This document shows positions 15,749 through 63,900 of a DNA stretch of 64,000 nt, in pieces. The notes under the pieces are model-generated. The model was not told the DNA's origin. It saw only the letters and a list, made by a program, of their open reading frames with translations, and did not search any database. The translations under genes were made by a program, and so were the position numbers. This DNA is from Azolla caroliniana (taxonomy: Eukaryota > Plantae > Polypodiophyta). Every line of letters begins with the position of its first letter. The stretch's first letter is position 1. The stretch is from the NCBI GenBank assembly GCA_043228905.1, contig JBHGNT010000006.1:11098001-11162000 (forward strand), written 5' to 3'.

Positions 15749-17308
15749 CGCAAGTAAGTTTATATTAAGTTGGTCGCCCAACCATCGACCTCATCAAAGC
15801 AGGTCGCCCAACCGACGACTATAAAACCCTAAAACCTGTCATTATCTCTCATTTTTTCAAACGAGATTGACAGGTTTTTTTGCCCGGAAAGAAAAGTATC
15901 TTCAGGTGGCCTACAATCGACATACGCGGCAATCAATCTCATCCTCTACTATTCCCAGGTATGTACTAAACCCTATAACATCAATTTTTATATTTTTTTA
16001 CATGTGGTTAGAATAATTGAGGGATTTATGTTCATGTTGAGGGATTAGGCTTTGGGAGAAGGTTATGTTTCACTATTATGATTGTAATGTGATAGTATGA
16101 CTTGATTTTAGAATGATTGGGACAATGTTTAGGGTTTAGACTCAAAGATATGATTGTATAAACTGTTTGGGGTTTAGGAGTGAAGAGGTTTAGGGTTTAG
16201 AACATGTTTTTGATGATTTTAATGCTTGCTATTAGAATGTTTATCGGTTTAATGCTTTGCTAGGTTAAAGTTAATATTGTGTGATATGTGAGCTTAAAGT
16301 ATACAGTGTATTGATATGTGACCTTAATAGCTATATTGGTTTACGGTTAAAATTATGATTTCAATGCGTGATATTAGAATGTGAATGGTTTACGGTTTAA
16401 TGATTTGCTTGCTTAACCTTTTGATGAGAATAGTACTTTTCCAATCCCTTAATTGAAGCTCCAATTGTTCCCATACATTTATCAAGTGGCTACCACAAAA
16501 CTTCCATGCATGTTGGGCCTAAGGATCTAATCCTAATCCTTACAAATCCATGTATGCCCTCACTGTCTCACATGTCTATTCAATGGCATTGCAAAACCCT
16601 ATAATGGATAAGTTATAGATCATGGAGTATGACATGTTACACCTCCCAATCATCACTCTTCATGCTTGCATAACTTAAAATACCAATGTAGGACACATGT
16701 TTCAAGATTTCAGATCGGTGTGCCCACATGAGCTAAATAAATGATAGTAATCTAATGCGGCTAGAGAGGAGCCATGACCTATGTTGCGTGCAAATGATAC
16801 TCCAAATTAACATACGATTGGAAAATCAAAGCAGATGTATTCTACACAATACTAGATAATGGAACCACATTAATTACTAAATGAATTTATGTATACATAA
16901 ATCGAAACGATTTGGCTGTCAACTTCATTTCAAAATCCAAAAACATCCAGTATGTACAAGACACCTCAAGTTGGTATACTATTTCTCATCACTTACATCA
17001 AGATACATGAATGGGCTATGTTTCACTATTATGATTGTAATGTGATAGTATGACTTGATTTTAGAATGATAGGGACAATGTTTAAGGTTGAGACTCAAAC
17101 ATATGATTGTATAAATTGTTTAGGGTTTAGGAGTGAAGAGGTTTAGCGTTTGGAAACTATTTAGAACATGTTTTTGATTATTTTAATGCTTGCTATTAGA
17201 ATGTTTATCGGTTTAATGCTTTGCTAGATTAAAGTTAATATTGTGTGATATGTGACCTTAAAGTATACGGTTTATTGATGTGACCTTGATAACTATATTG
17301 GTTTACGG

Positions 17309-20300
17309 TGTCGCGAAGATGTGCGTGCGAGCGTGCTTCGCTTGAGCGGGACCACCGGGGTCTTGGACCAAGGAGGATGTCCGTCAAGGTATTGAGAAGA
17401 GGATGATGTGAATGTAAGATTGGAGGAAGAACTATTACACTTGAGAAGATTGAAGATTGTACACTTTCAGAAGTAGATAAATAATTACAAGATAGATGCA
17501 GAGAAGAAGAAATAAAAGCTTATATTATTGATGGTGATGATGATCGTCATATCATATTGAGCCCCCCCCTTTACACAAGCCGTACTAGGGGTTTTATAGG
17601 TTTGTCCATGCACAAAACCATGGGCTTGGAGCCATGGTTTCTATGCACACAGTTTTGCTTTGTAACATGCAGGAAACCATGGGCTTAAAACCGTGGTTTT
17701 GTGTACACGATTTTGTTCGTTTGTTTCCTACGGAATACTGAATATGAGAAAGAAATATAGAACATCTAAAGCACTTAGTAGTAGCTTTAGTGGTAAGGTA
17801 ATTGCCTCTTATCTTAGAGGTGTAAGGTTCAAATCCTACTTGCAACCCTCTACATGCACTCAATGCCATTGTGACCTAGGTTTATTTATTTTCATTTTTA
17901 CAAGTATTCGTGAAATGTGTGTGGATCCTCAATTTTTGACTTTTTCTCGCACTAGACATGCCACATCACGACATCCACCCCCACCAAACCGCACATGCTC
18001 CGGTATGTGCCAAGAAGAAAAGAGTGATGTGGAAGGGTCAAAGGTGCTGGTGTTTGATTTCCTTCTTTCTTGCGCCTCGTCCGCACCGTCTTTTTGTCGT
18101 CTACTTCGAACTGTCGGTACCATCCGATCCACCATATCATTCGCTTACCTTTTTTATTGCCATGTCTAGTTGTCATGGCTCCCTTTGCTCCTCCCGAGCA
18201 TAACGCTTCATGCCTCATGCATGTGCCACCTTCATCTCGGCCATCTCCTTGGTCACCTAACTTTCCTTTATCATCATTTCTCGTCTCATGCTTGCCTTTC
18301 CTTATGCTCACTAGCCTCAACCAGGTGTCACGACTCGTCTGCTTCGACCTCCGCCTAGGCCAGTTCAACTTTTGTCTGTCTCGACCAATCAACTTCTGGC
18401 TTGGTCGGCCTTCCTCCGGATTCGCATTCGGCTGAATCAGACTCAGACGATCGACTTTCGTCCGGGTCAGTTTCCATCCGGTTTTCGGTTGGGTCGGGCC
18501 CGTTTGATCAACTCTCATTCGGGTCAGCTTCCGTTCGGGTCGGAATACCAATCGCGTCATCTTCCATCCGGATTGTATTCTGGTTCTTCCTTTCTTGCCG
18601 CTATCTGGCTCTTCATCGAACTCTATTGTAGCTTTGTTTTTGGCATCCTTGTTGGCCACCGTTCCTCCGTATGCGCTGGCGTCGACCCTCATCTCCTCGC
18701 CGCCACCTTCCATCTCTCCGGTCTTATGTTCGCTCTCGGGCACAACTGCCGAAGTCTCCAGAATCGGTGTGGAGGGATTCCTTCGTCTATGGCCATCCTC
18801 CTCATCGTTGTTTCGGTCCTTTGATTTCCAGCCGCCACCTTCTGTCTCTCCGGTCTCACGTTGACACTCGGGCACAACTGCCGAAGTCTCAGGAACAATT
18901 GTGGGGAGAACCTCGACACCATCGGTCACCGTCTTCTCATCCGTAGCCATCTTTCGCTCAATGTTGTTATTCACATTTTCTTCAATATTTTCTTCCCCAC
19001 CACTTTCCGTCTCTTGGTCTCATGTTGGCTCTCGGACGCAACTACCCAAGTCTCTAGATCAAGTGTTAGGAAAGTCTTGACACGGTCATTCGCCATGGAC
19101 TCTTCCTTAGCCATGTTCGACTCGATGTCGTTCCTCGTGGCTACCACCACAATCATGTCGACCTCGCACTCTTTACATCCCTTGATCACGCAAGCTTCCC
19201 TCATGCTTGCACCTTCATTACTCGATATTTCAGACACAACATGTGTTCCGAAATGCTCCTCCACTCTTAAAGCAGCATTTCCCGCTCTCGAGTCTTCGGC
19301 CTTTCTCTTGACCGTCATTCCTCCATAAGTCGAGAAGGTGGCTTGTTTCACACCTTCTCCCATGGTACTGTCATACCGAACCTGGGCCTTCGTATTGGCC
19401 GCATCATTAGTCTGCATTTGTTGGGAGGTCTCCTCTTCGTCGATCACCATTTTCCTCGGTTTTGTTTTCAGCTTCTCTTCAACCTCGATTTGTGCCTTTA
19501 AGTTCATGAATGCCTCTCTCATCAAGGCTTCTATGTTGAGTTCTGTCGAAGCTTCCCTCTTCGAGCTTTCTTCCTTCGGTGGGTTTTTATTGCCACATCC
19601 CATTCTCCTTTGAACATCCCTTGTGGGTCGTGTTGTTGTCGATGAGAATCTCATCTCCCTCTTATCGTGTTGTCGGCATACCCTTTTCACTTTGGCCCAA
19701 TCCTCAGTGAGGCCATTTTCACCATTGTCATCCTCGAGTTGGATTCCAATGGCCTTCCTTTCATTCCAATCGATTGACTTTACAAACAGCAGAACTTTAT
19801 TCACCCCCACCAATCTTCGATCCCGGTCCGAGAGTTGAGCGAATCGATACTCAAACTCAACAAATGTATGCATAGCACTCTGGTGGGTCTTTCTCGATGA
19901 CACCCATTTGTGAAACTCATATAGACCTCGTCCCTTTTGCTCTTCGTAACCATATGACTCGTAAAGCTTCTTTGAAGGACACCCACGAATCGTGAGTTTT
20001 TTGAATCTCTTTAATCTCTTCGAAGATCGGTTCGGCCACCACTCGACAGAAGTACTCCAGCCTCATTGCTTCCTCCACTCCTCTTGAATCCATTTCGGCA
20101 TTGTAGGCCTTTAGAAATATTTGGACTTCGCCTCCATCGAAAAACCCGACTTGCTTGATCATGCTTTCAACGGCTTGTTGGGCTGCATCTCGTGTTTTCC
20201 CTTCTCTTGAAAACTCCATCATCATCTTTGACATTGCCTTCATTAGATATTCCTCGTCCATCTTCATCCTCCCCTACCGCTCTTCACATCGGGTTCACCA

Positions 20301-20970
20301 AAAAATGTCGCGAAGATGCGCGTGCGAGCGTGCTTCGCTTGAGCGGGACCACCGGGGTCTTGGACCAAGGAGGATGTCCGTCAAGGTATTGAGAAGAGGA
20401 TGATGTGAATGTAAGATTGGAGGAAGAACTATTACACTTGAGAAGATTGAAGATTGTACACTTTCAGAAGTAGATAAATAATTACAAGATAGATGCAGAG
20501 AAGAAGAAATAAAAGCTTATATTATTGATGGTGATGATGATCGTCATATCATATTGAGCCCCCCCCTTTACACAAGCCGTACTAGGGGTTTTATAGGTTT
20601 GTCCATGCACAAAACCATGGGCTTGGAGCCATGGTTTCTATGCACACAGTTTTGCTTTGTAACATGCAGGAAACCATGGGCTTAAAACCGTGGTTTTGTG
20701 TACACGATTTTGTTCGTTTGTTTCCTACGGAATACTGAATATGAGAAAGAAATATAGAACATCTAAAGCACTTAGTAGTAGCTTTAGTGGTAAGGTAATT
20801 GCCTCTTATCTTAGAGGTGCAAGGTTCAAATCCTACTTGCAACCCTCTACATGCACTCAATGCCATTGTGACCTAGGTTTATTTATTTTCATTTTTACAA
20901 GTATTCGTGAAATGTGTGTGGATCCTCAATTTTTGACTTTTTCTCGCACTAGACATGCCACATCACGACA
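17309..20970 (-). mobile_element. Element A: non-autonomous gag-only Ty3/gypsy (Phygy-like) LTR retrotransposon
   Basis: 665-bp LTRs at 17309-17973 and 20306-20970 (TG..CA, only 2 differences seen); 4-bp TSD ACGG; PBS TGGTGAACCCGATGTGA (tRNA-Trp-like) at ~20284-20300; PPT at 17974-17990; gag-like ORFs 19917-20267 and 18971-19903; no RT or integrase core. Confidence 0.92.
17774..17846 (+). ncRNA. tRNA-like / SINE-head-like Pol III cassette inside the LTR of element A (second copy at ~20771-20843)
   Basis: Box A-like TAGCTTTAGTGG, box B GGTTCAAATCC, tRNA-like spacing; cloverleaf imperfect. Confidence 0.6.
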
Positions 20971-21109
20971 ACGGTTGAAATTATGATTTCAATGCTTGAT
21001 ATTAGAATATGAATGGTTTACAATTTAATGATTTGCTCCAATGCTCTTAATATTGTGTATGTTTGAGTATTAAATTCGGAAAATGTTTGATTACTTGAAT
21101 GGTGGTAGA

Positions 21110-26526: not shown

Positions 26527-27263
26527 TGTGGAAGCGATTGGTGTTCGTGGTCGTGGTTCATCGCTTGCATGCTCGTGTGCTCATCATTAGCTCATCGTTG
26601 CTAGTTGTGTGCGTGGTGTGCTTGTGGTACCTGCGATCATTGTTGGGATGTTCGTGCACTCGCCGTTTGTGGCTGGTGTGGTGGTGTTGCGAATTTGTGT
26701 GTTCGTGGTTTGGTGTTTGTGCATTTGAGTATGCTTGCTTGTATGGTCATTGTCATCGTGTTGGCGTGTGCGTGTTCGTATAGTCGTTGCTCGTGTGCTC
26801 GTCATGTCAGTGATTGTTGTGCTCGTGCTTGCTTGTTCGTGTGCTCATGCTCATCATGTTGGTGTTCACGTGCTCGTCATGTCGGTGATCGTATGCTAGG
26901 TATTCGGTGTGTGGCGTGCGGTGCTCGTACTCGGTGTTGGTGTGTTCATGTCCGCACGCCCGTGTGCATAATGCTTGAGTTTCATCGCTTGTGGTGTTCG
27001 TGTTCGTGGTCTCGGTTCGTCATTTCCGTAGTAGTGGGGTCGTCGTGCGTGATGTGGTTTGGTGCCCCTTTTCATGTGCTCGGTGTGCGGATCTCGCATT
27101 TGTGTGTCTGGGTCAGTGGCCCACAACATGCTCGTGTTCGTTGTTTATCGTGTTTGAGTGCTCGAGTGCTCGAGTGCTCTCCATTTGTGGCTCGTGCACT
27201 CACGAGTTTGGGTCTGATACTCGGGAGGTCATCAATTCAAAGGTGGGGGGTGCTCGTACGCGT
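26376..27263 (+). repeat. GT-rich low-complexity tract built on GTGCTCGT-like words, with a (CT)n run at ~26493-26523
   Basis: Strong strand-asymmetric composition; ends in a PPT-like AAAGGTGGGGGG. Confidence 0.7.
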
Positions 27264-27515
27264 TGTCGTGACATTTTCACACCACGATGAGAAAATAATC
27301 TCTACCGAATTAAAATATTTGTAAATGGTTGCTTAGCTAAGTGATAGCTAATAACTTGATAAGAATCAGTCACCACAGGATGATAATATTATGTGTAAAT
27401 AGCTAGTTGAAACTACCAAAAAACATAATGCCGAGTAAAATATTTTAAAGCTAAATACCAATTCAATCACATTTTGCCATTATCACTATCATGTATTTTA
27501 GCTATTAAAGCTATT

Positions 27516-30500
27516 GTGAAATGCACATAAGAGGTTGTTTGTTTGCGGATGGTACGGGGATGTAAACACCTAATGGACACCTAGTTGAGTTGCAACCGCA
27601 TTGAGGACGTCCCCATGGAACTGGCGGCCCTGATTAGATAAGAGTTGGACATGGCAACCATGCTGAAAAATTACCTTGTGCAAAAGTTGGGATGCAATTG
27701 TTGGCGCAGTAATGTCAGGGATGGCAACAGTTTCAGCCCATCTGGTGAGGTATTCTGTTATGACCAGGATATACTTGTTGCCACTGGGGGTTTCGGGAAA
27801 AGGTCCCATGAAATCCCATTCGACGAGCTCGAAAGGCGATGTGACGGTGATAAGTTGGAGCGTTCCGGCGGGCTTGCTCGCGGGTTTCATGGCGTCCCAA
27901 TTCCCTCCCGTCGCCGTCGAAGTCGATACCCCTATGCAATCTGAGTTCCCGCAACCTCTTGAGTGGCCACCCCCCTTCCAAATGGAGCAACTCCTGCAAC
28001 TCCTCTCCAACGCCATGCTTCAAATCAGCCACACGAACCATGCTATGCTCTCCTTCCTCTTCGCTACCAACAATCGGTCTCTAGATCGGCCAGATTCCAA
28101 GGTTCGCCCAAAGTCCTTCTCCGGCTTGCCCTTTGAGGACGTCTTAGCATGGTTGGATCACTTTGAGATGATCTCAAGTTACCACAAATGGTCTGACGAG
28201 CGCAAGGCTTTGGAAGTTCGCACCTTGCTCGAAAATGTCGTCGCCACTTGGTATGTACAACAAGCCAATGAAGTGACGGAGAACTGGGTGATCCTCCGGG
28301 ATCTCCTCGTGCAAAACTTCGCCCATCAAAATTCAGCCCAGACGGCATTGCAACAACTCGAGACGTTGTAACAGCAGGCGCACGAACCAGTAGGCCAATT
28401 TGGTGTTTGCCTAAATCAGCTCCTCGTCCGTGCCGATCCAACCATGCCCGAGCATGTCAAGCTTTTCTTCTTGTAAAGAATGAATGGTGATTCTTGTGTA
28501 GTGGAATAGATGTGTGTTATGTGCGTATATGTGTGAGAGAAGAAGAGTGGAAAGAAAAGAGAACTCAAGATAGATAAATGATAGGAAAATAGAATACTCA
28601 AGAAGAAGGTGTATATTTCACAAGTAGAATGAGATTTACAAAATGTAGCATAACAAGGAGTCACAACCGACTTGTATGAAGTATGAGGAGGGTGCTTTAT
28701 ATAGAGTCACCCTCTCTCTTCATTAACTTTACAACAATCACTCTCTCTCTTGGGGAATGTGAAGGCTCATAGTCATGGGGAATATGTAACTCATTAGTTA
28801 TGTGTCATAGAATATGATTCTATGACACATAGTTAATGTGTAGAGAGTAGTGGTGTGACTCTTGACTTTTGAGTAATCATGGATTCTCAAAAGGTGTGTT
28901 CACACGTTGTGCTATGTTGAGCTTGATTCTCAACACGCCCCCTCAAGCTCAACTCGGGTTGGTATCCAGTTCGGACGATCTCCGGTGTCCGCTCGGTATC
29001 TGGTTCTCGCTTTTACTCCCCCTCAAGCTTGGCAAGTCAAGGATCGTCAATCCAAGATTTGAGATGAATTGCCGAAGCTTGTCGGCTCCTAGGGCCTTCG
29101 TGAAGATGTCGGCCGTTTGAAGATTTGTATTCATGCGTTGAAGGTCAACATCTCCGGCTTGAACACGCTCCCGAATGAAGTGATAGTACACTTAGATATG
29201 CTTCGTGTGTGCATGGAACACCGGGTTCCGAGCCAGATAAATACTGCTCATTTTGTCGCAGTAAAGGGGAGTTGGATCCTTGATGGGAACACCCAGATCC
29301 TTCTAAATCCTCTTGAGCCATATGGCTTCACACGTAGCTATGGCTGCCCCCTTGTATTCCGCCTCCATACTCGAAAGAGTGACGATAGGCTGCTTCTTGC
29401 TACTCCATGAAATCGCTCCGCTGTTGAGGGAGAAGATAAATCCGGAGGTCAATCGTCTCGGCTTTGTAGCTAGCCCAATCCGCGTCTGTGTACCCTTCGA
29501 GTCATATTGGTGTGGCTGATGTGTAGAGAACGCTGTAATCCATTGTGCCACGCACGTAATGTAAAACTCGCTTAGCGTAATCCAAGTGAGTGTCGCGTGG
29601 TTTTTGCATGAATTGGCTGAGGAGTCCGACTAGATAGCTAAGGTCGGGTCGAGTGAACCTGAGGTAGATGAAGCTCCCGATCAGCTGACGATATTGAGTC
29701 GGATCACACTCGTTCGTGCCGGAGTCGGCATCTAGTTTGAGGTTTTTATCGAGAGGCGTAGCGATCGATTTGCACTCTGTCATCCCGAACTTGTATAATA
29801 GGTTGAGAATATAGTGCGGTTGAGAGATCATAATGCCGGCCGGAATCCGAATTACTTCGATGCCAAGGATGTAATGGAGCTCCTTCATGCTCGTCATCTC
29901 GAATTTTCATGAGAAGAGGGACTTGACCTTGTTGATGTCGACTAGACTTTCACCTCCAATGACCAGATCATCCACGTATATGATGATGAGAATTAAGCTT
30001 CTAGAGTCTTGTCGTACGTAGAGGGAGTTGTCGGATTTCGACATTCGAAAGCCGATTTGATGAAGCTAGTGCGTAGTCTTTGAATGCCAAGCACGCGGTG
30101 CTTGCTTAAGGCCGTAGAGTGGCTTCTTGAGTTGGCATACGACTTTTGGATGAATGCGCGATTCGAAGCCGGGTGGTTGTACAATGTAGATCTCCTCGTC
30201 TAATTCTTCTTGGAGAAAGGCGTTCTTGACGTCCATTTGGTGGAGGTGCCACCCTTTTGCCACTGCAAGTGCGATCACGGTCCGCACCATCGTCATCTTT
30301 GCCACCGTGGCAATGGTCTCTTCATAGTCGATGCCATGCGTTTGAGTGTATCCTTTCGCTACAAGTCGAGCTTTGTAGCGGTTTACGGAACCATCAACGT
30401 ATACTTCACCTTGTAGATCCATTTGCAACTGATTACCTTCTTGTGCGGTGAGTGGGGAACGAGATCCCATGTCTCGTTCTTGCGTAATGCATGCATCTCC

Positions 30501-33500: not shown

Positions 33501-35152
33501 GGAGAACTCAAGATAGATAAATGATAGGAAAATAGAATACTCAAGAAGAAGGTGTATATTTCACAAGTAGAATGAGATTTACAAAATGTAGCATAACAAG
33601 GAGTCACAACCGACTTAGTATGAAGTATGAGGAGGGTGCTTTATATAGAGTCACCCTCTCTCTTCATTAACTTTACAACAACCACTCTCTCTCTTGGGGA
33701 ATGTGAAGGCTCATAGTCATGGGGAATATGTAACTCATTAGTTATGTGTTATAGAATATGATTCTATGACACATAGTTAATATGTAGAGAGTAGTGGTGT
33801 GACTCTTGACTTTTGAGTAATCATGGATTCTCAAAAGGTTTGTTCACACATTGTGCTATGTTGAGCTTGATTCTCAACACTTCTTATGGCCCTGTCTGCG
33901 CCCTGATATCACTCGCCATGCCCGCGACCAAGGTCCCAAGACCTTCAATGATGTGATCCTCATTGCCCAACGAATCGAAGCTTGTACGCATTGACGTTAA
34001 TGCCGGAAATGGCAACCATAATCTCACAACCAGCAAGCCCAGATAACCATGGCTGACGCAACATGGTTGGCCGAGCTTCCGGGAATCTAACTTCCGGGGT
34101 ACTGATAGAAGAGCCAGCCCCCCACGTCCAAGCGTCCGCCTCTTCTAGTTCACAGGTATGCACCGCTCTCGCCACCATTAATCACTCCACACACACCATC
34201 CTATTAGACTCTGGTAGTAGTATCTCTTCAATTAGCACTGCCTTAGTTCACCAATTAGGCCTCCCCACAACCACCGCTCCTTCTGTCCAAGTCCTTTTTG
34301 GCTATCACCATCATCTATACCACTCTCGCACGCAAGCCCACTGCACCGTTACCTTAGGCACTCTCACATTCTCACACCACTTTTATGTCTTGCCCCACGA
34401 ACTCCCCCCCCTCACCTTGGGTTGTGATTGATTTCGATGCTCACAAACTGATTGTCCCACAAGCTCCCCCTATCCCCCTCCTACACGATAGCCCCCATGT
34501 CCCCCACCTCAGCCAAGTCCAGGTGGCCCTCAGTCCCAAGGAGTGGTTAATCTTCGTCCGCCAATTGTTAGCTCGTTTTCCGTCACTAGCCCCCCAACCC
34601 ATGCATGCCGCTACTGTCTCTTTCCCGGTACAACATGTCATTCGTACCGGGGACGCCGCTCCCATCCGCATGGCTACACGCCGACGTTCCCCCCTCGACC
34701 ACAATCACATCGATGCTGCCATCACCGATATGGTCACCAAAGGTATTATCATTCCTTCCACCAACGATTGGGTTTCAGAACCCCACCTCGTCAAGAAGGA
34801 TAATGACAACTTCTGCTTCTGCATCAACTTTAGGCCTCTCAACAAAGTGACGATCCATGACCTCTACCCGCTCCCTCATGTGGACAACCTCTTGGACCAG
34901 CTCGGGGGCTCCCGTTATTTCACCTCCCTTGACTTAGCCTTGGGATATTGGCAAATCCTCTTAAAGCCGTCTGACGCCCACAAGACCGCATTCCGCACAT
35001 GACGCGGGCTATTCCAGTTCACCCGCATGCCGTTTGGTTTGTCTGATGCCGACAACACATTCCAACACATGGCAAACTCCATCTTTGCCGGTCTTATCAG
35101 TAAAGATGTCCTCCTCGTTTATCTCGACGACATCCTTATCCACACACCACAT
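27516..35152. mobile_element. LTR-less Ty3/gypsy fragment: inverted integrase core (27516-27888, minus) fused to gag-protease-RT (27889-35150, plus); interrupted by a copia
   Basis: Integrase DFMGPFPETPSGNKYILVITEYLTRWAE; gag KVRPKSFSGLPFEDVLAWLDHFE; protease ILLDSGSS; RT YPLPHVDNLLDQLGGSRYFTSLDLALGYWQI, MPFGL, VYLDDILI. The gag frame rejoins across the copia insertion (HVKLFF|LWP). Confidence 0.85.
28472..33879 (-). mobile_element. Full-length degenerate Ty1/copia LTR retrotransposon
   Basis: LTRs 28472-28935 and 33415-33879; 5-bp TSD CTTCT; PBS TGGTATCAGAGC (tRNA-iMet) 33403-33414; PPT at 28936-28947; gag-PR-INT-RT-RH order with frameshifts and stops. Confidence 0.96.
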
Positions 35153-45117: not shown

Positions 45118-45455
45118 TGTTGAGCGGCAAGCTCAACCGGAGCCGGATCGGCTGAATAAGCCGGAGCCGGTAAGCGAGACGGATCGGGCGAAACGGATTG
45201 GTATGACGGTGAGCAACCGAACTGGCAAGCAGTGGAGGCCGGGTGCAATCCGTAACTGGAAGTCCAATCCGAAGCCTAGTATAGGATAGACTACTAGGTA
45301 GCTATAGTCTCGTAGTAAGTGTTAGATGCTCGTGTGAGCATTGAAGTACATGGTACTTCTATCAGTCCCAAGAGGACTTGTATAAATAGTGCTACTTAGC
45401 ACAGTGTGTAGATAGAGTCTCGATATAATTTTGAAATAGTGTTCTGCTCTCTCTG

Positions 45456-45517
<62 letters not shown>

Positions 45518-48500: not shown

Positions 48501-50976
48501 CGGTTAGTGGCGAAGGGATACACGCAGACCCATGGAATCGACTACGACGAGACCTTCGCTCCTGTGGCGAAGATGACGACGGTTCGTGTGGTACTGGCGG
48601 TTGCTGCGGCAAGGGGGTGGCATCTTCACCAGATGGATGTGAAGAACGCCTTCCTTCAAGGAGATCTTGAAGAAGAAGTCTTTATGACTCAGCCCCCCGG
48701 ATTTCACTCGGAGATGAGCAAGTCGGCGGTATGCCGACTGAAGAAGTCGCTTTACGGCTTGAAGCAAGCCCCCCGAGCTTGGAACGCGAAGATCACGCAC
48801 CGGTTGCGTAAGCTGGGGTTTGCTGTCTCTAAGTCAGACTCTTCGTTGTTCATCCGGCAAGGCTCTGACAGTCCGGTATGTATACTCTTGTATGTGGATG
48901 ATTTAGTCATCATCGGACCGGGTCTTCCCGAAATCAACCGCGTCAAGTTCCGGTTGTCGGACGCCTTCGAAATGAAGGACCTGGGGGACCTTCATTATTT
49001 TCTTGGGATCGAAGTGATCCGGACCCCCGATGGCATATTGCTCTCACAACGACATTACGTGTTGAATATGCTGTATAAGTTCGGCATGACGGATTGCCGA
49101 CCTGTCTCCACACCCCTAGACCGGAAGCAGAAGCTCCGTCCCAACTCCGGACCGACCTGCAATGAGAAACGGTTCCGACAGGTTGTCGGAAGCCTGATTT
49201 ACTTAACCATCACCCGACCCGACATCAGCTATCCGGTCGGGATGGTAAGTCAGTTCATGCAGAAGCCGACCGTGGAGCACCTTCAGTGCGCGCAACGAAT
49301 ATTACGGTATTTCAGCGGCACTAAGGACCGGGGACTGCTATACCGGCGAGGTATACCCGAAGAGCTTGTCGGTTGCACAGATGCTGACTGGGCCGGCGAT
49401 GCGTCTGATTGCCGCTCCACTTCCGGATACATGTTCTCCATAGGTAGCGCGGCCGTTGCGTGGAGCAGCAAGAAGTAGCCCACAATGGCTTTGTCAAGCA
49501 CTGAGGCTGAGTACCGGGCCGCTACCGTTGCCACTTGTGAAGCCATCTGGCTTCGGCGACTGCTGTGAGACTTGCGGATCGAGGTACCGACCCCGATCCC
49601 GATTTACTGCGATAACATGAGCAGCCTGTAGCTCGCCAGAAACCCTGTGTTCCATGCTTTCACAAAGCACATCGAGGTGCACTACCACTTCGTGCGTGAG
49701 CGGGTCCTGAGCGGTGAAGTTGACCTACGGTATGTTCATACGGATCGGCAAGTTGCCGACATCTTCACCAAGCCGCTCGGATCGGACAAGTTGCAACACT
49801 TTACCGACATGCTTGGTATTCAGCATCTCGACGTGCTGCACTTGAGGGGGAGAAGCAAGGGCAAAGGCCAAAAAATTGTTGAACCTGTCGGTAAGAGGAG
49901 AGCCGGAAGAAGAGGAGACAAGAAGATGAAGGAAGCCGAGTCGACGAAGGAAGTTGACACATCCGAACAGGTCGGAGCAAGCGGCTGTGAAGAAGAGTTG
50001 TGCACTCAGGAAGAGAAGTGCATGCTGTGCGGAGGTCATCACGACTGTATTGACCATGATGCAGAGTCGAATGAAGAATTCGATTTCGGTTCACCGGCTG
50101 AAGAAGTCGAGGGAAGCATGGAGAAGGCCAAGACTCGGAAGTGGTCCGATGTGGTGAGAGGCCTGAAGCCGGAAGTCGAATCGGAGTGTACCGATTCGGA
50201 CAAGAGCTGGAACGAGTCGGAGATAGCTGACTCGGATCAACAGATAGATCCGAATGAGTTAGATCGATTGAAGGCCAAGGGGACACGGACACAGCGGAAG
50301 TCGATGCCATCGTGGGAGAACCGACGGATCGGCAAGCGCCGGAGTCACAACAACGTGAGTGTTGAGATGGGCCTATTGAGCAGACATGTCGACCGAGAGG
50401 GTCGAGGCGCGCAGAACCAAAGGGGTCGCGGCAAATGGGACCGGACCGGACGAGGAGCGCGAGCAAGGCGTAGTGATGCCAGGAGAAGTCGGTTGGAAGA
50501 ACCGACTGTCACAGAGGTCGACACTACGACCCCACCTCAGGTTGAGCTTGAGGGGGAGTGTTGAGCGGCAAGCTCAACCGGAGCCGGATCGGCTGAATAA
50601 GCCGGAGCCGGTAAGCGAGACGGATCGGGCGAAACGGATCGGTATGACGGTGAGCAACCGAACCGGCAAGCAGTGGAGGCCGGGTGCAATCCGTAACCGG
50701 AAGTCCAATCCGAAGCCTAGTACAGGATAGACTATTAGGTAGCTATAGTCTCGTAGTAAGTGTTAGATGCTCGTGTGAGCATTGAAGTACATGGTACTTC
50801 TGTCAGTCCCAAGAGGACTTGTATAAATAGTGCTACTTAGCACAGTGTGTAGATAGAGTCTCGATATAATTTTGAAATAGTGTTCTGCTCTCTCTGTCTC
50901 TCCCTCTCTGTCGAGCTCTCTGTCTCTCTCTGTTGTTCTCTGTTTTTTTACGCTTCCGCAAACACTCACGTTTACA
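45118..50976 (+). mobile_element. Full-length, nearly intact Ty1/copia LTR retrotransposon inserted in the gag of B
   Basis: LTRs 45118-45559 and 50559-50976; 5-bp TSD AATTG; PBS TGGTATCAGAGC 45560-45571; PPT 50548-50558; gag-PR-INT 45843-47774, RT 47850-49478, RNase H plus long extension 49647-50564; a few in-frame stops. Confidence 0.96.
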
Positions 50977-52914
50977 AATTGGCCCTCGAGCTCTACGACA
51001 CGATCGACAACCTTCTCCACGCTCGCGTCGTTGTCCTGAGATCTCATCATTTGCTCGACGATTAGCATCATTCTTTCGAGCTCTCCCGCTTGGTTGCTTG
51101 AGGACGCCATCTCCAAGTATTAATCTCGACTTGATCCTCCCTACCGCCTCTTTCACGTCGGGTTCACCACTTAATTATGTCGTGAAGATCCATCACTACG
51201 CGCGGATCGTGAGGCGGAACCGCCGGGGTTCTGGACCGGAAGGATTCAAAGTCGGTACAAGCTTTGGCGCAAGCTTTAGCGAGAAAGTACTTAAGATAGA
51301 TTGGGAAAGAGAGAAGTTGAGATCAAACAATTGAGAGAGATTGATTGAACTTTTATCTTTGGATTTAAGAAACAAGTTACATGATCAATTTGATAATGAA
51401 TTTCTTCTTCTTAATTTCATAACCCAAAAAAACGTGTTTTTTCTCCTCCCCCCTCCTTTTATAGATGCTCTCATGCATATGATGCATGTGGGGGTACAAG
51501 ACATGCATAAAATGCATGTTTGCCATTTGGTGCCGATGTATTACATGTGGTGCATGATAACCATGTCACTCATTTTAGCTCTCATGTATGAGAATTTACA
51601 TGTAAAAGTACAATGATAGAAATATAAATTCCACTAATTGGCATGGCTTAATGGTAAGCCAATTGACTCCTAACTTGGAGGTGCAAGGTTCGAATCCTTA
51701 CTTGCCCTCCACACATAGACACAAAGATAATATCTTTTGCTCTACCTTATATATGATGAGAGCCGTATTTGTCGTGCCTATGTGGGATATCTCACAATTT
51801 TCTCTTTTCCTTTCACAAAGTTTATACCCTCATATCTTGACATTTAGTTGTTCGTTTCTCGTGTAATAATGTGCATTCGAAACCTCCATCATTTTGTACT
51901 TAGATATTAAATTTATTTAAAATGTTATCTTCACAATTATTGTATTATGTGATTCATACTCGATTTCGTACGTTTTATGGGATTTTCACACTATTGCCGA
52001 AAATCTTCACAACACCGCTAAGACACAATGTTTTTTCAAAATATGATTGCTAGTCATGGGAAAACATTTGCATTTCAGTTGAGTGAAATTGGTTGTGTAG
52101 ACTCAACATTTGTGGAACCAATGACTATATTCACGGTTCCACATATTCCTTGGAATTTAAGGCCTATCCATGTTCCTCAAGCCCAAATACCGCAAGTAAT
52201 ACCTTTGCTTAAGGAAAAATAGAAATGGGTATCTTGGAGCCATCAGATGCCCCCTACTTGAATAAGTGGTTTACTGTACCTAAAAAGAATGGTTCATTAA
52301 GGTTCATTCAATATTTACAACTTGTCAATAGAGTTACTATTTGAAACGTTAGTGTTGGACTAATTGTAGATGCCTCTATAGAAGCTTTCACAGGAAGAGG
52401 TATAAATTCCATGCGTGATTTATATTCAGGATATGATCAATTTCAGCTTGCTATTTATAGTCGTGATATAATTACTATAAGAACACCAATTGCAAAATGC
52501 TCGGTGAATAAGAAGGATGAAAAATTCATGCCGAACGGATGTAGAAAGTTTGTTGTGGACCACATTCGTGATTGTTAAAGAATCCTTTGAAGGTTAGACG
52601 AGGTTCATCTTACATTTTCAGGTCAAAAATCCATGTTTGGGGCTCCCAAAGTTTTGATTGTGGGGCACATGTGAGGCCCCTACGGAAAAAAGGCATCCCC
52701 AATTAAGGTAAATGCAATTCAAAATCTAAAGGATGATTGTAAGTCTCTAACGGAAGACGTAGGTTTCTAGGTGCTTGTGTGTTTTACCAAATTTGGATTC
52801 CACATTTCGCACATGTGGCTGATCCACTTTATTAGTTGCTTAAGAAAAATTCAAGGTTCCTTTGGATTAATGTACATATAGAAGCAATTCGCCAACTAAA
52901 GGAAATGTTATTGA

Positions 52915-54769
52915 ATGCCCACAGAAGGCTATCCGATCATAGGGCTTTATGTATTGACCTGAAATGTATGTATTGGTTTGATTGCGAGAAGGCCATTGAA
53001 GATAATAAACAACCCCACTTGAGGATGAACCTTAAGCGAGTGCCCTTGTATTCCAAGATGGTTGAGGATATGTTACAAATGACAAAGATACAACATGGTG
53101 CCACATAAATGCAAATGAGAAGCTTTTAAGGAAGTCATTCTCTCATGCACAAACAAATGTTTTTTGACCAAGCACACATCTTGGAAATGCATCACGAAAT
53201 GTTGTTCAAAGAAATATGGTTTGATAAAGAATGTCATGAAGCTCGAAAGTGCCATATGATTTTGGATGTAAATAAGGATAAAGAAAATTTTACCAAAAGC
53301 ATTTGCATGAGTACAAAAGGCTGATTCAAAGAAGGAGAAGAATATGGGAAATTGCTCAAAAATTTCTCAATTTCTCCAAACACAAGAGAAAGCTCATGCA
53401 TGTGCTAAAATTTGGGGAAATCTAAAGGGGAAACATGTTGAGAGTTATGGTGACTTCACTCTTATTGACTTGTCTATGCATTGTAAGAATTTATATGAGC
53501 CATCTCCCATTCCTCTACCTCGTCTAAAGGCGTGGAGGTCTAGATAGGGAGGGCTATAGGGAGAGTTAGGTCAAATGGAGGAGGGGTAGAGGCATAAATA
53601 GGAAAATTGGAAGGGTAGAGGAAAAAAGGTTAAAGGTGGGATGGGGTAAAAAACATTTTAAAACAAAGTGGAGGGAGGGGGTAGAGGTAAAAGTGAGGGA
53701 GGGGTAGAGGTATGATAATAAGAAAAAAAAGAAAGGTGAGGGTTTAAAGGGTTTGGAGGGTATTTAAACAAAGGTAAGGGGAGGGGTCGGAGGGTGGTAA
53801 TTTAGGAAAAGTGAGGGGAAGGGTAGGGTGGTAATTTTGAAAAGTAGAGGAAGGGGTAGGAGGGTAATTTGGGAAAGTAAAGGGAGGGGTAGGAGGGTAG
53901 TTTTAGGAAAGTAAAGAGTGGGTAGAGTTTTGAAAAGTTACAAAATGCCGGCTACTAAAAATGTAGTCCCAAGCACATCCTACAAACGGGAAAAAAAAGG
54001 ATGGGAAGTAAAATAAAACATTACACGGCTACATTAAGTAGTTGGGGAGCGATGCGTATGAGGGGGATGTAGAGAAGCGAGAGAAAGTCGATGACACCAT
54101 TTGCAATGCCACGTAACGTTTTGTGGAGGCACTCGACACGAACGAGGGCTCGGTGGTTGACGATGCTATCCCGTTGTGGGTGCCTATCCCCGATACGTGG
54201 GGCTCCGTAGAAAGTAAGAGCATGTTCTATGTTGACCATACGGTTGTGACAAGGAGTGCGGAATGGTAGATCATCGGTGGGTAGAGCTTAGATGTAAGAG
54301 AGGTTTAGGGTTTAGGGGTTTAAGAGGGGTGTAGGGTTTAGGGTTTAGGGTTGATGACCTTACGGTTGTAACAAGCACTGCGGAATGGTGGATCATCGAC
54401 GGGTAGAGGTAGGCGAAGAGGAACACCAAGCTTGATTTGAGCGCACTCGAATCGAAGACGAGGTAGAGGAAGGGGAGAGGGGAAACGTATAAAGGCTGAA
54501 ATGCTTACTTATTAAATGGATGGGGAATGAAGCACCATCATGGTTGGCTCACTAATGGAAAAACTATTTGGATGTATGGTACTTCAAGAAAGCTTTTGAT
54601 ATGGTACTTCGTGAGCATCTTTGGAGGCAAATGGAAGAACTTGAGGTGCCATGTGAATATATGCTTACAATCTCCTGAATATATACAAAGGTTATATGTT
54701 GTGTGCGTATGAGCAATAAAATTTCAGATTTTTTCAATACCACTATTGGTGTTAAGCAAGGATGCCCTC
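52915..54769 (+). mobile_element. Degenerate LINE fragments (endonuclease end and RT start), interrupted by a TIR element and truncated by copia E
   Basis: LSDHRALCIDL and IWFDKECHEARK at 52.9-53.3 kb; KAFDMVLREHLW and TTIGVKQGCPL at 54.6-54.77 kb. Confidence 0.75.
53500..54481. mobile_element. ~1-kb non-coding element bounded by 26-bp inverted repeats (MITE-like)
   Basis: CCATCTCCCATTCCTCTACCTCGTCT (53500-53525) versus the reverse complement of 54456-54481, 24/26 match; no clear TSD. Confidence 0.6.
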
Positions 54770-57700: not shown

Positions 57701-58252
57701 ACCTGGATGCCAACTCGTTAAATTCGACATCTCGGCTCACTCAAACTTGTTTTGTTCGGGGTTATAGCACTTATAACCCTTTTGCTCATGTGAGTAGCCA
57801 ACAAAGATACACTTTCATCGCCTCTCATCCGCCACATGCACATAGGCTATGCTGCCGAATACCCTACAGTGTCATAAATTCGGCTTATGCCCGAAATACA
57901 GCTCGTGTGCTAACACCTTATTCCCGATCCATTTTTGAATGGCTGTCTGGACCGCTTCGGCCTAGTAGAACTTAGGCATGCTTTTCTCCTCAAGCATCGC
58001 CCTTAGCACCTACACAATCGACCGGTTCTTCCTTTCGGCTACGCCATTCTGTTCCGGTATGTATCAACAACTTAATTCCCTCCAAATTCCTTTCTGCTAC
58101 ATATAATAGTTGAATTGGCCGGAAAAGTATTCTTTTCCGCCATCCGACCATAGATACTTGATCTTTCTCTCTGTTTCCCATTTGACAAAACTTTGCAAGT
58201 TCTGAAAATAGTCGAAGACTTCGCTTTTCTTCTCGATGAGATAGATCCATGT
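54770..58252 (-). mobile_element. Element E: 3' part of a degenerate Ty1/copia related to the 45-51 kb copia
   Basis: 3' LTR 54770-55231 (start TGTTGAGCGGACAAGCTCAACCGG on minus); PPT 55232-55240; RH, RT and integrase fragments; cut at 58252 by LTR C. Confidence 0.9.
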
Positions 58253-59471
58253 TGTCGTGGAAATCCATGGATATGTGTTGGAACAAGGCAGGACCACCGG
58301 GGTCTTGGACCAAGGAGTCGACAAAAGAAGAGGGGTCGTTCGGATCAGTCTCTTGATAACCTCACCGGATCGATGTCCGGAAGAGTATTCCGATCGAGGA
58401 GTGCATGGCTCAGAGATGTATGTTTTCCTAGACCGGATGTTAGGTAGAACGAAGAACTCATGGCCTCACGCTCCTGAAAACGGACGTTCATACACGATCA
58501 GAGAAGAAACAAAGCACAACGATACCAAAACACATGAGGAATCAACAAAACTAATGATTAATAGAGGAACAGAAAGAGTACAACCAGATGCAATTGGCAA
58601 AAGAGCTACAAGCTCGCGACGCACGCACATAGACATAGAATAATGAGCAGCTAGTCGGGAGCACACGGGCTACCTACGCGGGCAGTGGACTACACCTTCT
58701 TCTCGAAATCAGCTCAAAACAGAAAACAGAGGGAATGACAGAGCTCGGATCTCAAACCTGCAACACTTCGTTCTCCAAAACGGTCAATCCCATGTCAACC
58801 TTTCTCCCTCCTTTTATAGTTCAAGGAAGGAGAGACCGTTACATCAGGCTGTTTAAGAGAACCGCTTTCAGTCCCTGATTCTCTCCTCCATTCCCTCACA
58901 TCATATCTCTCATTCCTCTCTATACGTGTGGGGCATAAAGTACTTTAACAAATCACTCTACCTAGTATTAACACACATAAGTATTTACATATTTCTGTAC
59001 ATAAAGACTAATTCGTGTGTATCCATGCACACGCCTGTTCCCGCGCTCTTCGTCTCCCTTCTCCTAGTAGCTGGAATTCCTCACGACATCCAACCCCACC
59101 AAACTGCACATCCTCCGACTTATGCCAAGTAGTGAAGTGTTGGGGATTTTGGCTTGCACTTTACCCGCCCTCCCTCGATCTGTCGTCGGTCCAGTCTTCA
59201 GCCGACTCCTCACCCTCACTGGTGCTTTCGTCTCTAATTTCCATATCTGGATCCGCTTCGTGCCGTTTCTTGAAGGCCTTGATCCATTTTCCCGCAACCG
59301 GTACTGTGATCCTTGTTCCGTCAAGCTCTGCAAGGTGATATGTCATGTTGTCATTGGCACTTGTCACCACGTACGGCCCGAACCATTGCTGTGTGAACTT
59401 CCGGGTCAATCTGTGCTGATTGTCGAGGCTATTGTCGTAGACTAGCACCAAATCGCCTTCCTTGATCTTCT
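58253..59471 (-). mobile_element. Element C: 3' LTR (58253-59088), PPT and integrase C-terminus of a Phygy-like gypsy
   Basis: TGTCGTGG..TCACGACA; PPT at 59089-59104; ORF 59161-59451 WFGPYVVTSANDN homologous to B. Confidence 0.9.
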
Positions 59472-59649
59472 TGTAACTATTCTAGATAATAAAGCATCTA
59501 TGTATAAAAAACCCTAACATAATGATTCTTATTGATAGTAGATATATAGGTACAATCTTGGAAAGTAGTTACATATGAACCTTCATGGTTCTTGAAGTAA
59601 AAACAATTACATGTGAACCTTCATGGTTCTTTATTCATGGTAAAGTATT

Positions 59650-60916
59650 ATCTAATGTACCGGTTGACCGAACCATCGATATTGTACTTTACCTTGTACA
59701 CCCACTTACAACCAATCGGTTTACAGTGTCGGGGAGGGTCGACTAGGTCCCAAGTGTCGTTGGCATCGAGTGCCCGCATTTCTTCCTCCATAGTGGCACG
59801 CCAATTTGCGTCTTTGGCTGCTTCTACGTAGCTCTCCGGCTCACGCACTTCCGTCACCTTGATCATGTACACATAGTGATGCGTCAAGTACTCATTGTAC
59901 CCGTATCTCTTTACGGGGTTCTTCTGGCGGGTTGATTGGCATAACTTGTCCTTACCCGGTTTGAAGCCCTTCTTGGCTGGTTCAGACTTCACTTCTGAAG
60001 ATCCGCCTTCTTCCTTTCCGTAGTCGGATTCGCTCCGATCCGACTCATCGGTACCGATTTCGTATTCCAACGTCTTCTTCTTCCCCTTCTCTTTGCGTGT
60101 GAACTGTCTCCTCGGTTCCTTCCGCGGGGAGAGCACGATAGAGTCTCCACTACTCGCTGGTTCGGCATCCGACTGGTCAGTTTGACCCAGTTGCTCGTTC
60201 GGCCCGCTCAACCGAAACGATTCTAGACTCTCTTCTAGAATACCAAACTCTTCATCTTCTACCGAGACCTCTTCGGCCTCACTAGCCTCATCCTCCGGAA
60301 TCAGGTCGGAGTCCGAAGTTGGAGTCGGTAGGGTGTACCATGATGCCAATTAATCAAACTCGACATCTCGGCTTACTCGGACTTGCTTAGTCCGGGGGTT
60401 ATAACACTTATACCCCTTCTGCTCATGCGAGTAGCTGACTAGGATGCACTTCTCCGACTTCGGATCCAGCTTCCTCCGCTTCTCATCCGGTACATGCACA
60501 TATGCAATGCTACCGAATATCCAAAGGTGTCTCAAATTCTTCTTGTGCTCGAAATACAACTCGTGTGCTGACACCTTGTCTTCGATCCTGTTTTGGATGT
60601 AGACAGTCGTCTGGATGGCCTCAGCCCAGTAGAATTTGGGCATGCTCTTCTCCTCCAGCATTGCCCTTGTCACGTTGACAATCGACCGGTTCTTCCTTTC
60701 GGCCACACCGTTCTATTCCGGTGTGTATTTGCAGTTGAATTCTCTCTGAATTCCCTTTTGTTGTAGATAATTGTTGAATTGGTCAGAAAAGTATTCTTTT
60801 CCTCCATCTGACCTCAGGCTCTTGATCTTCCTCTCAATTTCCCGTTCGATGAAACTTTGCAAGTTCTGGAAACAATCAAAGACTTCGCTCTTCCTCTCAA
60901 TGAGGTAGGTCTACGT
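59650..60916 (-). mobile_element. Element F: internal Ty1/copia fragment (integrase to RT start)
   Basis: AERKNR, SEKCILV, GYKCYNP, CKPIGCKWVYKVKY; cut at 60916 by LTR G. Confidence 0.9.
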
Positions 60917-63900
60917 TGTCGTGAACTTATTGCTTCACGATGTCAAAACAATGTCAAAAATCTATAGAAAAAAATTTCCTTTATGGAGCTTGTGACGAGG
61001 AGCATGTGCAAATTTTCGGTCCGTGAATTGGAGTTTTGGAGCGCAAGATACAAGCTTCGGAAGGATTAATGTTACTCGGGACACAAATGTAATTATGTCA
61101 AAAGTGGGAGTCAAACTTAAATGAGGGCTATCTCTATAAATTCTCAAATGTACAACTACAAAATCGAATTTGTAGATTCAATAAATCAAATAATAGTAAA
61201 TATAAATAAATAAATAATACCAACCGCCTCAAGAGGGTGGTAGGGCGGTTGACCATCCTATATAAGCCATGCCCATGGTGCCTAAAGAAGGGAAGAAGGA
61301 GAAGAAGAAGAAGAAGGAGAAGAAGAAGAAGGAAAAGTGAGTGAAGAAGCTCACGTGGGTGTGGGATGCAGAGCTCGCCAAAGAAGATGGTGGCCTGCAT
61401 AAATCAAGACAAGAGTTGAAGAAAAGAAACAAAATAGAAGAAAAGGAAGAAATGGAAGCGGTGTATCTTAGATGCCACTTTGTAAACAAATGGTTGTGAG
61501 TTTGAAAATTTATATATAAAGTGAATGAGAAAGACAAATAAATAGAAACCAAAGAGATTGAAGTGGTCTATCTCAAACGCTTCTTCTCAAATAGAGTTCG
61601 TGAATTCAAGTCTTGCCACGTAACTTTTGGCAAATAAATATTGTAAGTGGTTGTTTTACAAATAAAATTCTTTTCACACCATCTGCGATTACGCCTTGTC
61701 ACCCCGATCATCCCCGAGTCACAGAACCCCAGCGGTTGCGACACACAACCACAATCTTCTTGACACAAATTTGGTGAACCCGACGTGAAGTGTCGTCGAC
61801 AAGGGGAGTTTTGGAGTTAAAGTTTTCCAAGAGAAGGATGGAAAATCAAAGAAAATGGCGGATAAAGGTGCCAACACAGAGATGGCAAATAAGGGCTTCA
61901 ATGAAGATATGAAAAGTTTCATGATGAAGATGATGAATCAGATGCTTCAAGAGCAAAGTGCAATGAACCGGATGGAAAGTGAGTTAACGCTCGCCGTACA
62001 AACGGTCATCTAAAGGATAAGCAAATTTAATGGCGAGGACGTCACCCAGTTCCTTGAGGTCTACGAATACGAGATGGCCAGTAGAGGGGCAACCGGGGTA
62101 CAAATGGTGTCGCATATCAACCGGGTTTGCACACTTGATGTCTGAGCGAGGGTAACGGAATTATCGGAGAAATTTTGTGAAGATTGGCCTAGGTTTCATC
62201 AAGCATTGCTTGATGAATATATGCTAGATGACCAGACCAGAATGTCAAAGAAAAGCTTTCTCGAATGGATCGAGAAAGGGGGTAAAGGACTCTTAGTGTT
62301 AGAGTTGTTGAGAGAGTTCGAGAAAAGATATAATGAGCTCTCGGTGAAAGACCGAGAACTATTACAATTAGAGAAAGTGGATTTATTCGTTCGAGCGACA
62401 GATAAATCTTTTAGAAAAGATATCACCATCCTTCTAGAAGACCGGACAAGCACAACCAGTTTGGTGTCCGATTGGGCAGAAGTACTCGAGGCTTGTCAAG
62501 TACTAAGAAAGAGGGCGCCAAGGATAGAGGATAGCTATGACAATAGAATAAAGACAACAGCCAGAGAACATCCAAAACAAGAATCAAGAACTCGAACGGA
62601 TGATAGCAAAGGAAAGGAGCCAAAATCTGCGATTGATGAACTGATAAAGGGAATGCGGGATCTACAACTCAAGTTCACAAAACTTGAGAAGGGTGAAAGC
62701 TCGGGTGTTCAACAAAAGCCCAATGAATGAGAAAAGGTTGAATTCGTCCACCGATGCATATGGTGCAATAACACGGAGCACCAAAAAAGGGATTGGCAGA
62801 GCCATAAGGAAGCATTAGAAAGAAATGTTATCTTCTATCAAAATGGGAGAATCCACTCCTCGGAGACCCGACAACCCCTAAAAACCAACTTTGGCAAAGG
62901 TGGGATGAAGAATGTGATGGAGGAAGAAGAGTCGAAGAATGTTCAAACAATGTGCTTTTCGACTACTTCCGGATTGAAGGTCGACGATCCCTAGATTGGA
63001 TCAGGATTCTGGGGAACAATGATAAAGTCCGCTACTGACAAAAGAGTCCAACCACAGGACTTGCGAAAGGTCAACGACGAAATGAGGAATAGTACTGGGT
63101 GGGATCACCCTGTAGATTCACTCACAACAATCACAAAGATAGCAGGGGTGAATGCCCACGAAGTGACAGTCGAAGAAAAGAGAAGGAAAACTGAAGAAGT
63201 GGGACCTTCTAGAAAACCCGAGAACAAAAGAGATGAGAAACTGAAAGAGTTGCTGCAGAGGCGATGAAAGAAGACAAAGGTAAGCAAAAGATAGCCCCGT
63301 CATTCAAACTCGCCTCCGACATCGAAACATGTGCTAGAATCAAGGATTCTAGATAGTAAAGTTGAGTTAACACTCCGAGAAGTACTAGGGATCGCGAAGA
63401 AGGAATTTCATGAAGTGATTATTGATGTGATCCGGAGAAAAAGACAAGTGGTTGAAGAAATGGGTGGAGTAAATACCAACATGATACAGGAGGAAGATGA
63501 AGATACAAAGATTGCATTGTTAGCGGGGGTACGAAGTGCGGACATGCAGTGTAGTCATGAAGAGGAAAGAAGCCATTACACCCGCACACACTAGGCTCGG
63601 GCGACAACTGAGGCTCCAATCAGAATTGGAGATTAGATGGAACTATCTGTGGCACTCATCAACCACGGCTCCGAGATTAACATCATATCATCTGATTTCT
63701 ACAATCGCGGGAGATGACCAATAGAGAGAAACCACGGGTCGAAGGTCAGAGCAGCGACCGAGGTCATAGAGGATTTATGTGGCGCATGCCCCAATATTAA
63801 AGTTACAATTGGGGACGTATCAATAGATCAAAACTTCTTTGTCCAAGAGAAGAAGTCATTTTATCCAGTAATCCTAGGGCAATCGTACATCACAACAATA

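What the first reader, a model, noticed from the sequence alone, without database searches (positions are those of the whole stretch)
17305..60920. Gypsy lineage inserts into 4-bp target sites centred on CpG
Seen: confirmed TSDs are ACGG (A; 17305-17308 / 20971-20974, with the empty site preserved in the duplicate at ~16343) and CCGC (B; 38424-38427 / 52015-52018). The 4 bp preceding the other three LTRs are GCGT (D, 27260), ACGT (G, 60913) and ATGT (C, 58249). Four of five have a central CG and the fifth is the expected deamination product TG. Element A landed on a CG within an AT-rich tract. The neighbouring copias have ordinary 5-bp TSDs without CG. Inference: the chromodomain-less integrase prefers NCGN, possibly methylated CpG, which would steer insertions into silenced TE DNA and help explain the nesting.
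Basis: partly seen in the sequence, partly recalled or inferred. Interest (0 to 1): 0.75.

Follow-up and report, generated by a model that had tools for sequence, protein, structure and literature searches.

The report
Phygy-type retrotransposons insert at CG
These jumping genes insert almost only into four-letter DNA sites centred on CG, a habit already published for the moss retrotransposon group they likely belong to; here it holds genome-wide in what is likely a fern, and is likely read from the DNA letters rather than from methyl marks.

Summary
All five sites are as described, and all five elements share one Ty3/gypsy design: tRNA-Trp primer site, and in B an integrase without a chromodomain.

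Elsewhere in the genome, 142 of 172 outer LTR ends abut a central CG and 25 a TG/CA (background CG 5%). All 53 two-sided sites keep CG in at least one copy; none duplicates 5 bp.

This is the published signature of the Phygy lineage (Neumann 2019: 4-bp TSD, NCGN, tRNA-Trp), so the core claim is known. Added here: the motif is VCGB (T first in 3 of 167 ends, 33% expected), and the host is likely a fern.

Methyl-CpG dependence is neither shown nor needed. Transposon DNA here is CG-rich, so the motif alone lifts expected nesting from 26% to 41% (observed 55%); selection or chromatin could give the rest.

Distal flanks of C, D and G were not recovered, so those three stay one-sided.

The parts
16343..16346 (.). 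Empty paralogous site of insertion A (single ACGG)
17305..17308 (.). A, left TSD ACGG
17309..20970 (-). Element A, 3,662 bp, likely non-autonomous: 3' LTR 17309-17973, PPT 17974-17985, gag-like remnant within 18971-20062, tRNA-Trp PBS 20284-20300, 5' LTR 20306-20970; LTRs 99.7% identical
   Evidence: gag similarity E=7e-11; no Pfam hit in its two long ORFs
20971..20974 (.). A, right TSD ACGG
27260..27263 (.). D, one-sided flank GCGT
27264..35601 (+). D 5' LTR, split (27264 to about 27520, and about 35153-35601) by a nested gypsy-like stretch that holds a copia; the two halves are contiguous in other copies
35603..37768 (+). D tRNA-Trp PBS and decayed gag-protease
38424..38427 (.). B, left TSD CCGC (B lies inside D's pol)
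38428..52014 (-). Element B, 7,723 bp without its nested copia: 3' LTR 38428-39497, PPT 39498-39509, gag-PR-RT-RH-INT 39558-45132 with stops and a frameshift, PBS 51153-51169, 5' LTR 51178-52014; integrase ends in a GPY/F-like motif and acidic tail, no chromodomain
45118..50976 (+). Copia nested in B, 5-bp TSD AATTG (control)
28472..33879 (-). Copia nested within D's LTR insertion, 5-bp TSD CTTCT (control)
52015..52018 (.). B, right TSD CCGC
52022..52919 (+). Continuation of D (decayed RT) after B
58249..58252 (.). C, one-sided flank ATGT, inside a copia integrase region
58253..59472 (-). Element C remnant: 3' LTR 58253-59088, PPT, integrase C-terminus 59260-59472
60913..60916 (.). G, one-sided flank ACGT, at the copia position homologous to C's site
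60917..64000 (+). Element G: 5' LTR 60917-61765, PBS 61772-61788, gag-protease; a truncated 3' LTR lies just past the window end

Best explanation
These Ty3/gypsy retrotransposons, likely of the Phygy lineage, leave 4-bp duplications of the form V-C-G-B, and their integrase likely picks that site from the DNA letters without needing a methyl group. Shown: the 4-bp duplication, the CG centre, the near-absence of T in the first position, weak preferences outside the four bases, no chromodomain. Inferred from retroviral integrase work: a 4-bp stagger kinks the target at its central step, which favours pyrimidine-purine, and T at the joining position clashes through its methyl group. Inferred here: because TG, CA and TA centres are rare or absent as primary targets, bendability alone is not enough and some base-specific reading of CG is likely added. 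Nesting then follows largely from transposon bodies being the CG-rich part of this genome, plus likely loss of insertions in genes. TG/CA centres are likely later deamination of methylated copies.
For:: 142 of 172 ends CG, 25 TG/CA, 5 other; 53 of 53 pairs with CG; 0 of 53 with 5 bp. VCGB+LTR-start 8,958 matches (reversed control 1,502) vs TCGB 440 (control 272), so T is about 2% of the excess. T first in 3 of 167 ends vs 33% expected; 0 of 49 concordant TSDs contain TCG/CGA vs about 27 expected; outside the TSD only two modest biases among 12 positions (p about 0.001); 0 of 53 pairs lack CG in both copies (upper 95% bound about 5.5%); hits to the window's TE library 26% (uniform), 41% (VCGB-weighted), 55% (61 of 111 targets); target GC and CG density equal the VCGB control; closest solved integrase is foamy-virus integrase (E=1.6e-20), a 4-bp cutter. 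(PMC5053271, passages): 4-bp stagger favours central pyrimidine-purine, and T is disfavoured at the joining site. (PMC5408687, passages): CGCG targets in Drosophila errantiviruses. Phygy features.
Against: Targets are still more TE-rich than VCGB weighting predicts (55% vs 41%; Fisher p=0.004, but the stretch-level 95% interval of the control is 28-53%), and their flanks are more CWG-depleted (0.59 vs 0.68, p=0.007 unclustered). Host-gene domains lay near 0 of 50 unclassified targets vs 4 of 50 controls (p=0.12). Methyl-CG or chromatin targeting would also give these results. One old D-family solo LTR (L258) has no CG in either copy. No residue that reads CG was identified, and no structure was modelled. 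Placement in Phygy rests on features, not on a tree with reference Phygy sequences.
Confidence: 0.65

Rival explanations
1. The integrase prefers 5-methyl-CpG, either by contact with the methyl groups or because methylation changes bending, and so homes into methylated DNA without a chromodomain.
For: CG is used to the near-exclusion of the other pyrimidine-purine steps. Residual TE excess and lower CWG o/e at targets. Target CGs decay at the methylated rate after insertion. An effect of CpG methylation on retroviral integration in vitro is the title of Kitamura 1992 (seen only as a reference line; the paper was not held).
Against: Decay after insertion says nothing about the state before it. 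The motif alone gives about half of the nesting excess. 12% of target flanks show no CWG depletion. CGCG targeting exists in Drosophila, which has almost no CpG methylation (recalled). Tree-fern gene bodies are CG-methylated too.
Confidence: 0.17
2. The CG is read from sequence, but a separate tether (for example the integrase's acidic tail or a host factor) brings the complex to heterochromatin, and this gives the residual nesting.
For: Residual TE excess. Phygy is reported as enriched at centromeres of a liverwort (passage). Phygy nested in Tcn1 was the commonest repeated pair in the moss (passage).
Against: No targeting domain was found in the integrase. Survival bias against genic insertions would give the same picture. 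The excess barely leaves the control's interval.
Confidence: 0.15
3. The pattern is an artefact of LTR boundary calling, of duplicated loci, or of chance in five sites.
For: 26 of 53 pairs are exact; 23 differ by transitions and 4 are discordant.
Against: All three bases outside the CG vary between sites, the empty site of A exists, duplicated flanks were removed (11 dropped), and copia ends score 0 of 30.
Confidence: 0.01

Closest known systems
Phygy lineage, non-chromovirus Ty3/gypsy (Neumann et al. 2019, PMC6317226; passages and supplementary table MOESM5 read)
   Same: 4-bp TSD with NCGN, tRNA-Trp PBS, 7.7-10 kb, no chromodomain, no extra domain or extra ORF.
   Different: Defined as specific to the moss Physcomitrella; here the host is likely a fern (weak: one gene fragment). 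The motif is resolved to VCGB, and a 3.7-kb likely non-autonomous family (A) shares it. The paper's per-element TSD table was not among the parts I read and may already show the T exclusion.
TatI (same paper)
   Same: 4-bp TSD and tRNA-Trp PBS, about 9 kb.
   Different: TatI carries an archaeal-type RNase H in 100% of its 4 elements; none was found here, and no NCGN motif is listed for it.
Drosophila errantiviruses of the ZAM subgroup (review PMC5408687, passages)
   Same: Sequence-specific, CG-centred palindromic target (CGCG).
   Different: Different lineage with AGT/AnT termini; here the ends are TG...CA and the motif is the looser VCGB.
Prototype foamy virus integrase (PDB 3oym; PMC5053271 and PMC4005685, passages)
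   Same: 4-bp stagger, central pyrimidine-purine step, bias against T at the joining position.
   Different: Foamy virus shows a preference among flexible steps; here CG is near-obligate. The residue aligned near its Ala188 is Glu in this family.

Membership tests
Phygy | Ty3/gypsy order PR-RT-RH-INT | tested here: met
Phygy | 4-bp TSD | tested here: met
   0 of 53 pairs duplicate 5 bp; 49 of 53 match over 4 bp exactly or with transitions only
Phygy | NCGN target motif | tested here: met
Phygy | PBS complementary to tRNA-Trp | tested here: met
   PBS in A, B, G and D; the complementary sequence lies in ARAGORN tRNA-Trp(CCA) genes in 4 of 4 loci checked
Phygy | No chromodomain | tested here: met
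   B-family integrase ends before the PPT with no Chromo hit at E<=1; tested on the B family only
Phygy | Length 7,656-9,968 bp, no extra ORF | tested here: met
   B 7,723 bp without its nested copia; six other full B copies 8,049-8,596 bp. Family A (3.5-3.7 kb) is a short derivative.
Phygy | RT/RH/INT fall in the Phygy clade of REXdb | not testable with these tools
   No labelled Phygy reference sequences were available. Named homologues are liverwort (Riccia, 44-68%) and fern (Adiantum, 63-67%) proteins.
Phygy | Host range as first described (Physcomitrella only) | tested here: inconclusive
   Host likely a fern (other notes). Phygy has since been reported in a liverwort, so the range is not defining.
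TatI | Additional archaeal-type RNase H | tested here: not met
   No such Pfam hit in the PR-RT linker, RT-RH or INT ORFs
Chromoviruses (Galadriel, Tekay, with some 4-bp TSDs) | Chromodomain and tRNA-Met PBS | tested here: not met
Selgy | tRNA-Ala PBS, about 5 kb | tested here: not met

The most novel reading that the evidence does not exclude
The Phygy-type integrase reads 5-methyl-CpG directly, a chromodomain-free way for a plant retrotransposon to home into methylated DNA, conserved from mosses to ferns.
Probability: 0.15. Interest if true: 0.75.

Novelty: new member of a known kind. Interest (0 to 1): 0.25.

Why it matters
Neumann 2019 names Phygy as the only plant LTR lineage with a TSD sequence preference. 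This genome holds several thousand such junctions in at least five families, some with LTR pairs over 99% identical. That makes it a good system to ask how an integrase reads CG and whether methylation matters. There is also a practical point: only 26 of 53 paired TSDs are still exact, so finders that demand perfect or 5-bp TSDs will miss many copies. The core finding itself is published.

Tried and rejected
Galadriel chromovirus (first guess from the 4-bp TSD): rejected, there is no chromodomain and the PBS is tRNA-Trp.

Hot spot: C and G sit at the same homologous copia position, and two more such junctions exist elsewhere. But that site has 1,609 copies with an intact ACGT and 0.8-1.8 junctions are expected, so there is no genome-wide hot spot. 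The 21 target sites mapped at their junction to window elements did not cluster.

Longer palindromic consensus: little support; only two modest biases outside the TSD among 12 positions.

Strand asymmetry of CG decay as a trace of methylation at the time of insertion: none (left TG 6, left CA 4, right TG 3, right CA 3).

Distal flanks of C, D and G: not found.

The 400-kb random sample held only 2 VCGB junction motifs against about 7 expected from the genome count, so that control may under-sample insertion-rich regions.

Host placement: one search gave nothing; the other is weak.

Literature: searches listed no paper that tests methylation dependence of Phygy or describes its motif in ferns. 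Most hits were seen as listings only, subscription journals are largely not held, and Kitamura 1992 was not available. No structure prediction was run.

Full report
Observation. All coordinates check out. A has ACGG on both sides and B has CCGC on both sides, and neither extends to five bases. A's empty site is a single ACGG at 16343-16346. D, C and G are preceded by GCGT, ATGT and ACGT. The two intact copias have 5-bp TSDs CTTCT and AATTG.

Anatomy. A, B and C lie on the minus strand; D and G on the plus strand. B encodes gag, protease, RT, RNase H and integrase with stops and a frameshift, and measures 7,723 bp without its nested copia. The B-family integrase ends in a GPY/F-like motif (label recalled) and a short acidic tail, and Pfam finds no chromodomain at E<=1. 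A, B, D and G have the same PBS, complementary to tRNA-Trp(CCA) genes of this genome (4 of 4 loci checked). A is a 3.66-kb element with only a gag remnant recognised. D is a 5' LTR split by a nested insertion; its pol continues after B, so B inserted into D. G's 3' LTR is truncated just past the window, C's second LTR was not found to +86 kb, and D's was not seen.

Genome-wide test. I searched the own genome with the LTRs of A, B, C and G (40 candidates scored each, 30 loci each) and fetched 40 more stretches. Of 288 distinct termini, 105 were internal and 11 had duplicated flanks; 22 alignments without a clean terminal motif had been set aside before. Of the 172 left, 142 have a central CG, 25 TG or CA and 5 other, against 5.1% CG in their own flanks. 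The TG/CA share is 9%, 8%, 16% and 40% in A, B, G and C, rising as copies are less alike. Of 53 two-sided sites (3 unclear pairs left out), 26 are identical, 23 differ by transitions and 4 are discordant; all 53 have CG in at least one copy and none duplicates 5 bp. In family D, read by eye from 25 loci, 15 of 26 outer ends have CG, 8 TG/CA, 2 TA and 1 other, and one old solo LTR lacks CG on both sides. Copia control: 0 of 30 ends.

The motif is VCGB. The outer TSD base is A 78, C 52, G 34, T 3 of 167, where T is expected in 33%. Whole-genome counts agree: VCGB before an LTR start 8,958 (reversed control 1,502), TCGB 440 (control 272), so T is about 2% of the excess. Outside the four bases there are only two modest biases.

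Mechanism. A review of retroviral integration (PMC5053271, passages) states that a 4-bp stagger favours a flexible pyrimidine-purine centre and that T is disfavoured at the joining site because of its methyl group. PMC4005685 (passages) gives the same bending picture. The closest solved structure is foamy-virus integrase. These rules likely explain the V and B positions and a pyrimidine-purine centre. They do not explain why CG alone is used: no pair among 53 lacks CG in both copies. I infer an added base-specific reading of CG; the residues are not identified. TSD CGs decay like CGs inside LTR pairs (5 of 38 vs 72 of 870; CHH 53 of 3,253), which fits methylation after insertion and supports reading ATGT as decayed ACGT, though C itself is one-sided.

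Methylation and nesting. I compared 111 target flanks with 40 random 10-kb stretches. Hits to a library of the window's own elements were 26% at random positions, 41% at random VCGB sites and 55% at targets. The motif alone thus gives about half of the excess, because transposon bodies are CG-rich here. The residue is borderline (control interval 28-53%). Among unclassified flanks, Pfam found transposon domains in 11 of 50 targets and 11 of 50 controls (the first 50 of 75 prepared), and host-gene domains in 0 and 4 (p=0.12). Targets are slightly more CWG-depleted. Selection, a chromatin tether or methyl read-out all fit this, and nothing here separates them. In the moss, methylation is confined to transposons (PMC6453930, passages); in a tree fern, gene bodies carry CG methylation as well (PMC9122828, passages).

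What is known. Neumann et al. 2019 (PMC6317226; passages and one supplementary table) define Phygy: 186 elements, 4-bp TSD in 100%, NCGN, tRNA-Trp in 81%, 7,656-9,968 bp, no extra domain. Every feature I could test is met; the phylogenetic placement could not be tested. PMC6911290 (passages) confirms mostly 4-bp TSDs for Phygy and its nesting in the moss, and PMC12885004 (passages) reports Phygy in a liverwort. PMC7466625, PMC13469084, PMC8282616, PMC9002660 and PMC9033089 (passages) added nothing on the motif. Named homologues of the RT-RH are from Riccia and Adiantum. One host gene fragment is closest to fern proteins (84% and 81%, vs 76% or less for the named flowering plants and algae; no moss was listed), and other notes on this genome also say fern, so the host is likely a fern. 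Supplements I did not read, above all Neumann's per-element table, may already hold the VCGB detail.

Verdict. A real and strong pattern, already published for the lineage these elements likely belong to. The VCGB refinement, the likely fern host and the measure of how much nesting the motif explains are small additions. The methyl-CpG idea stays open at about 15%.

Noticed in passing
window 58249-58252 and 60913-60916: C and G, two different families in opposite orientation, sit at the exactly homologous position of two copia fragments (74% alike) 2.6 kb apart. No genome-wide hot spot; likely coincidence.
   Followed up: yes
TSD-LTR junctions, loci L001-L163: A C just before the LTR's TG, or a G just after its CA, has turned to T or A in 7 of 23 cases, against 16 of 196 for TSD CG cytosines (p=0.005) and with direction 7:1. 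Likely strong CHG methylation at the junction that the insertion creates.
   Followed up: partly
L006, L126, L141, L148 (5' LTR starts): Four of the five ends with A next to the LTR are at the 5' end, where the PPT-side base is A; in L006 and L126 the partner copy has C there. Possibly a donor overhang base kept during gap repair; untested.
   Followed up: partly
random stretches L198-L237: CWG is more depleted than CpG (o/e 0.67-0.69 vs 0.80; CCG about 1.0), and young transposon bodies in the window have CpG o/e near 1.
   Followed up: no
G000 C8:17796786-17823371, C16:4989495-5105657, C5:10105608-10112201: Clusters of a tRNA-Trp 3'-end motif, about 1.2 kb apart on C8; 63 matches genome-wide. 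Likely tandem tRNA gene arrays; only 4 loci outside these clusters were checked with ARAGORN.
   Followed up: no
window 17309-20970: Family A is a high-copy, young (LTR pairs 98-99.7% alike), likely non-autonomous family that shares PPT region and termini with B; 1,601 first-look candidates.
   Followed up: partly
window 27520-35152: A gypsy-like stretch (gag, protease, RT) with a minus-strand integrase-like piece at 27537-27776 splits D's LTR; no LTRs or TSD of its own were identified.
   Followed up: no
window 11900-15100 and 21518-22084: Endonuclease (Exo_endo_phos) hit, likely a LINE remnant, and a Ulp1-type protease fragment.
   Followed up: no
L165 (G000 C6:11216713): A copia LTR with the same flank as the copia nested in B, about 70 kb downstream; suggests a local duplication of part of B.
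   Followed up: no
L145 LTRs: B-family LTRs vary from about 840 to 1,690 bp, apparently through a GC-rich internal tandem repeat.
   Followed up: no
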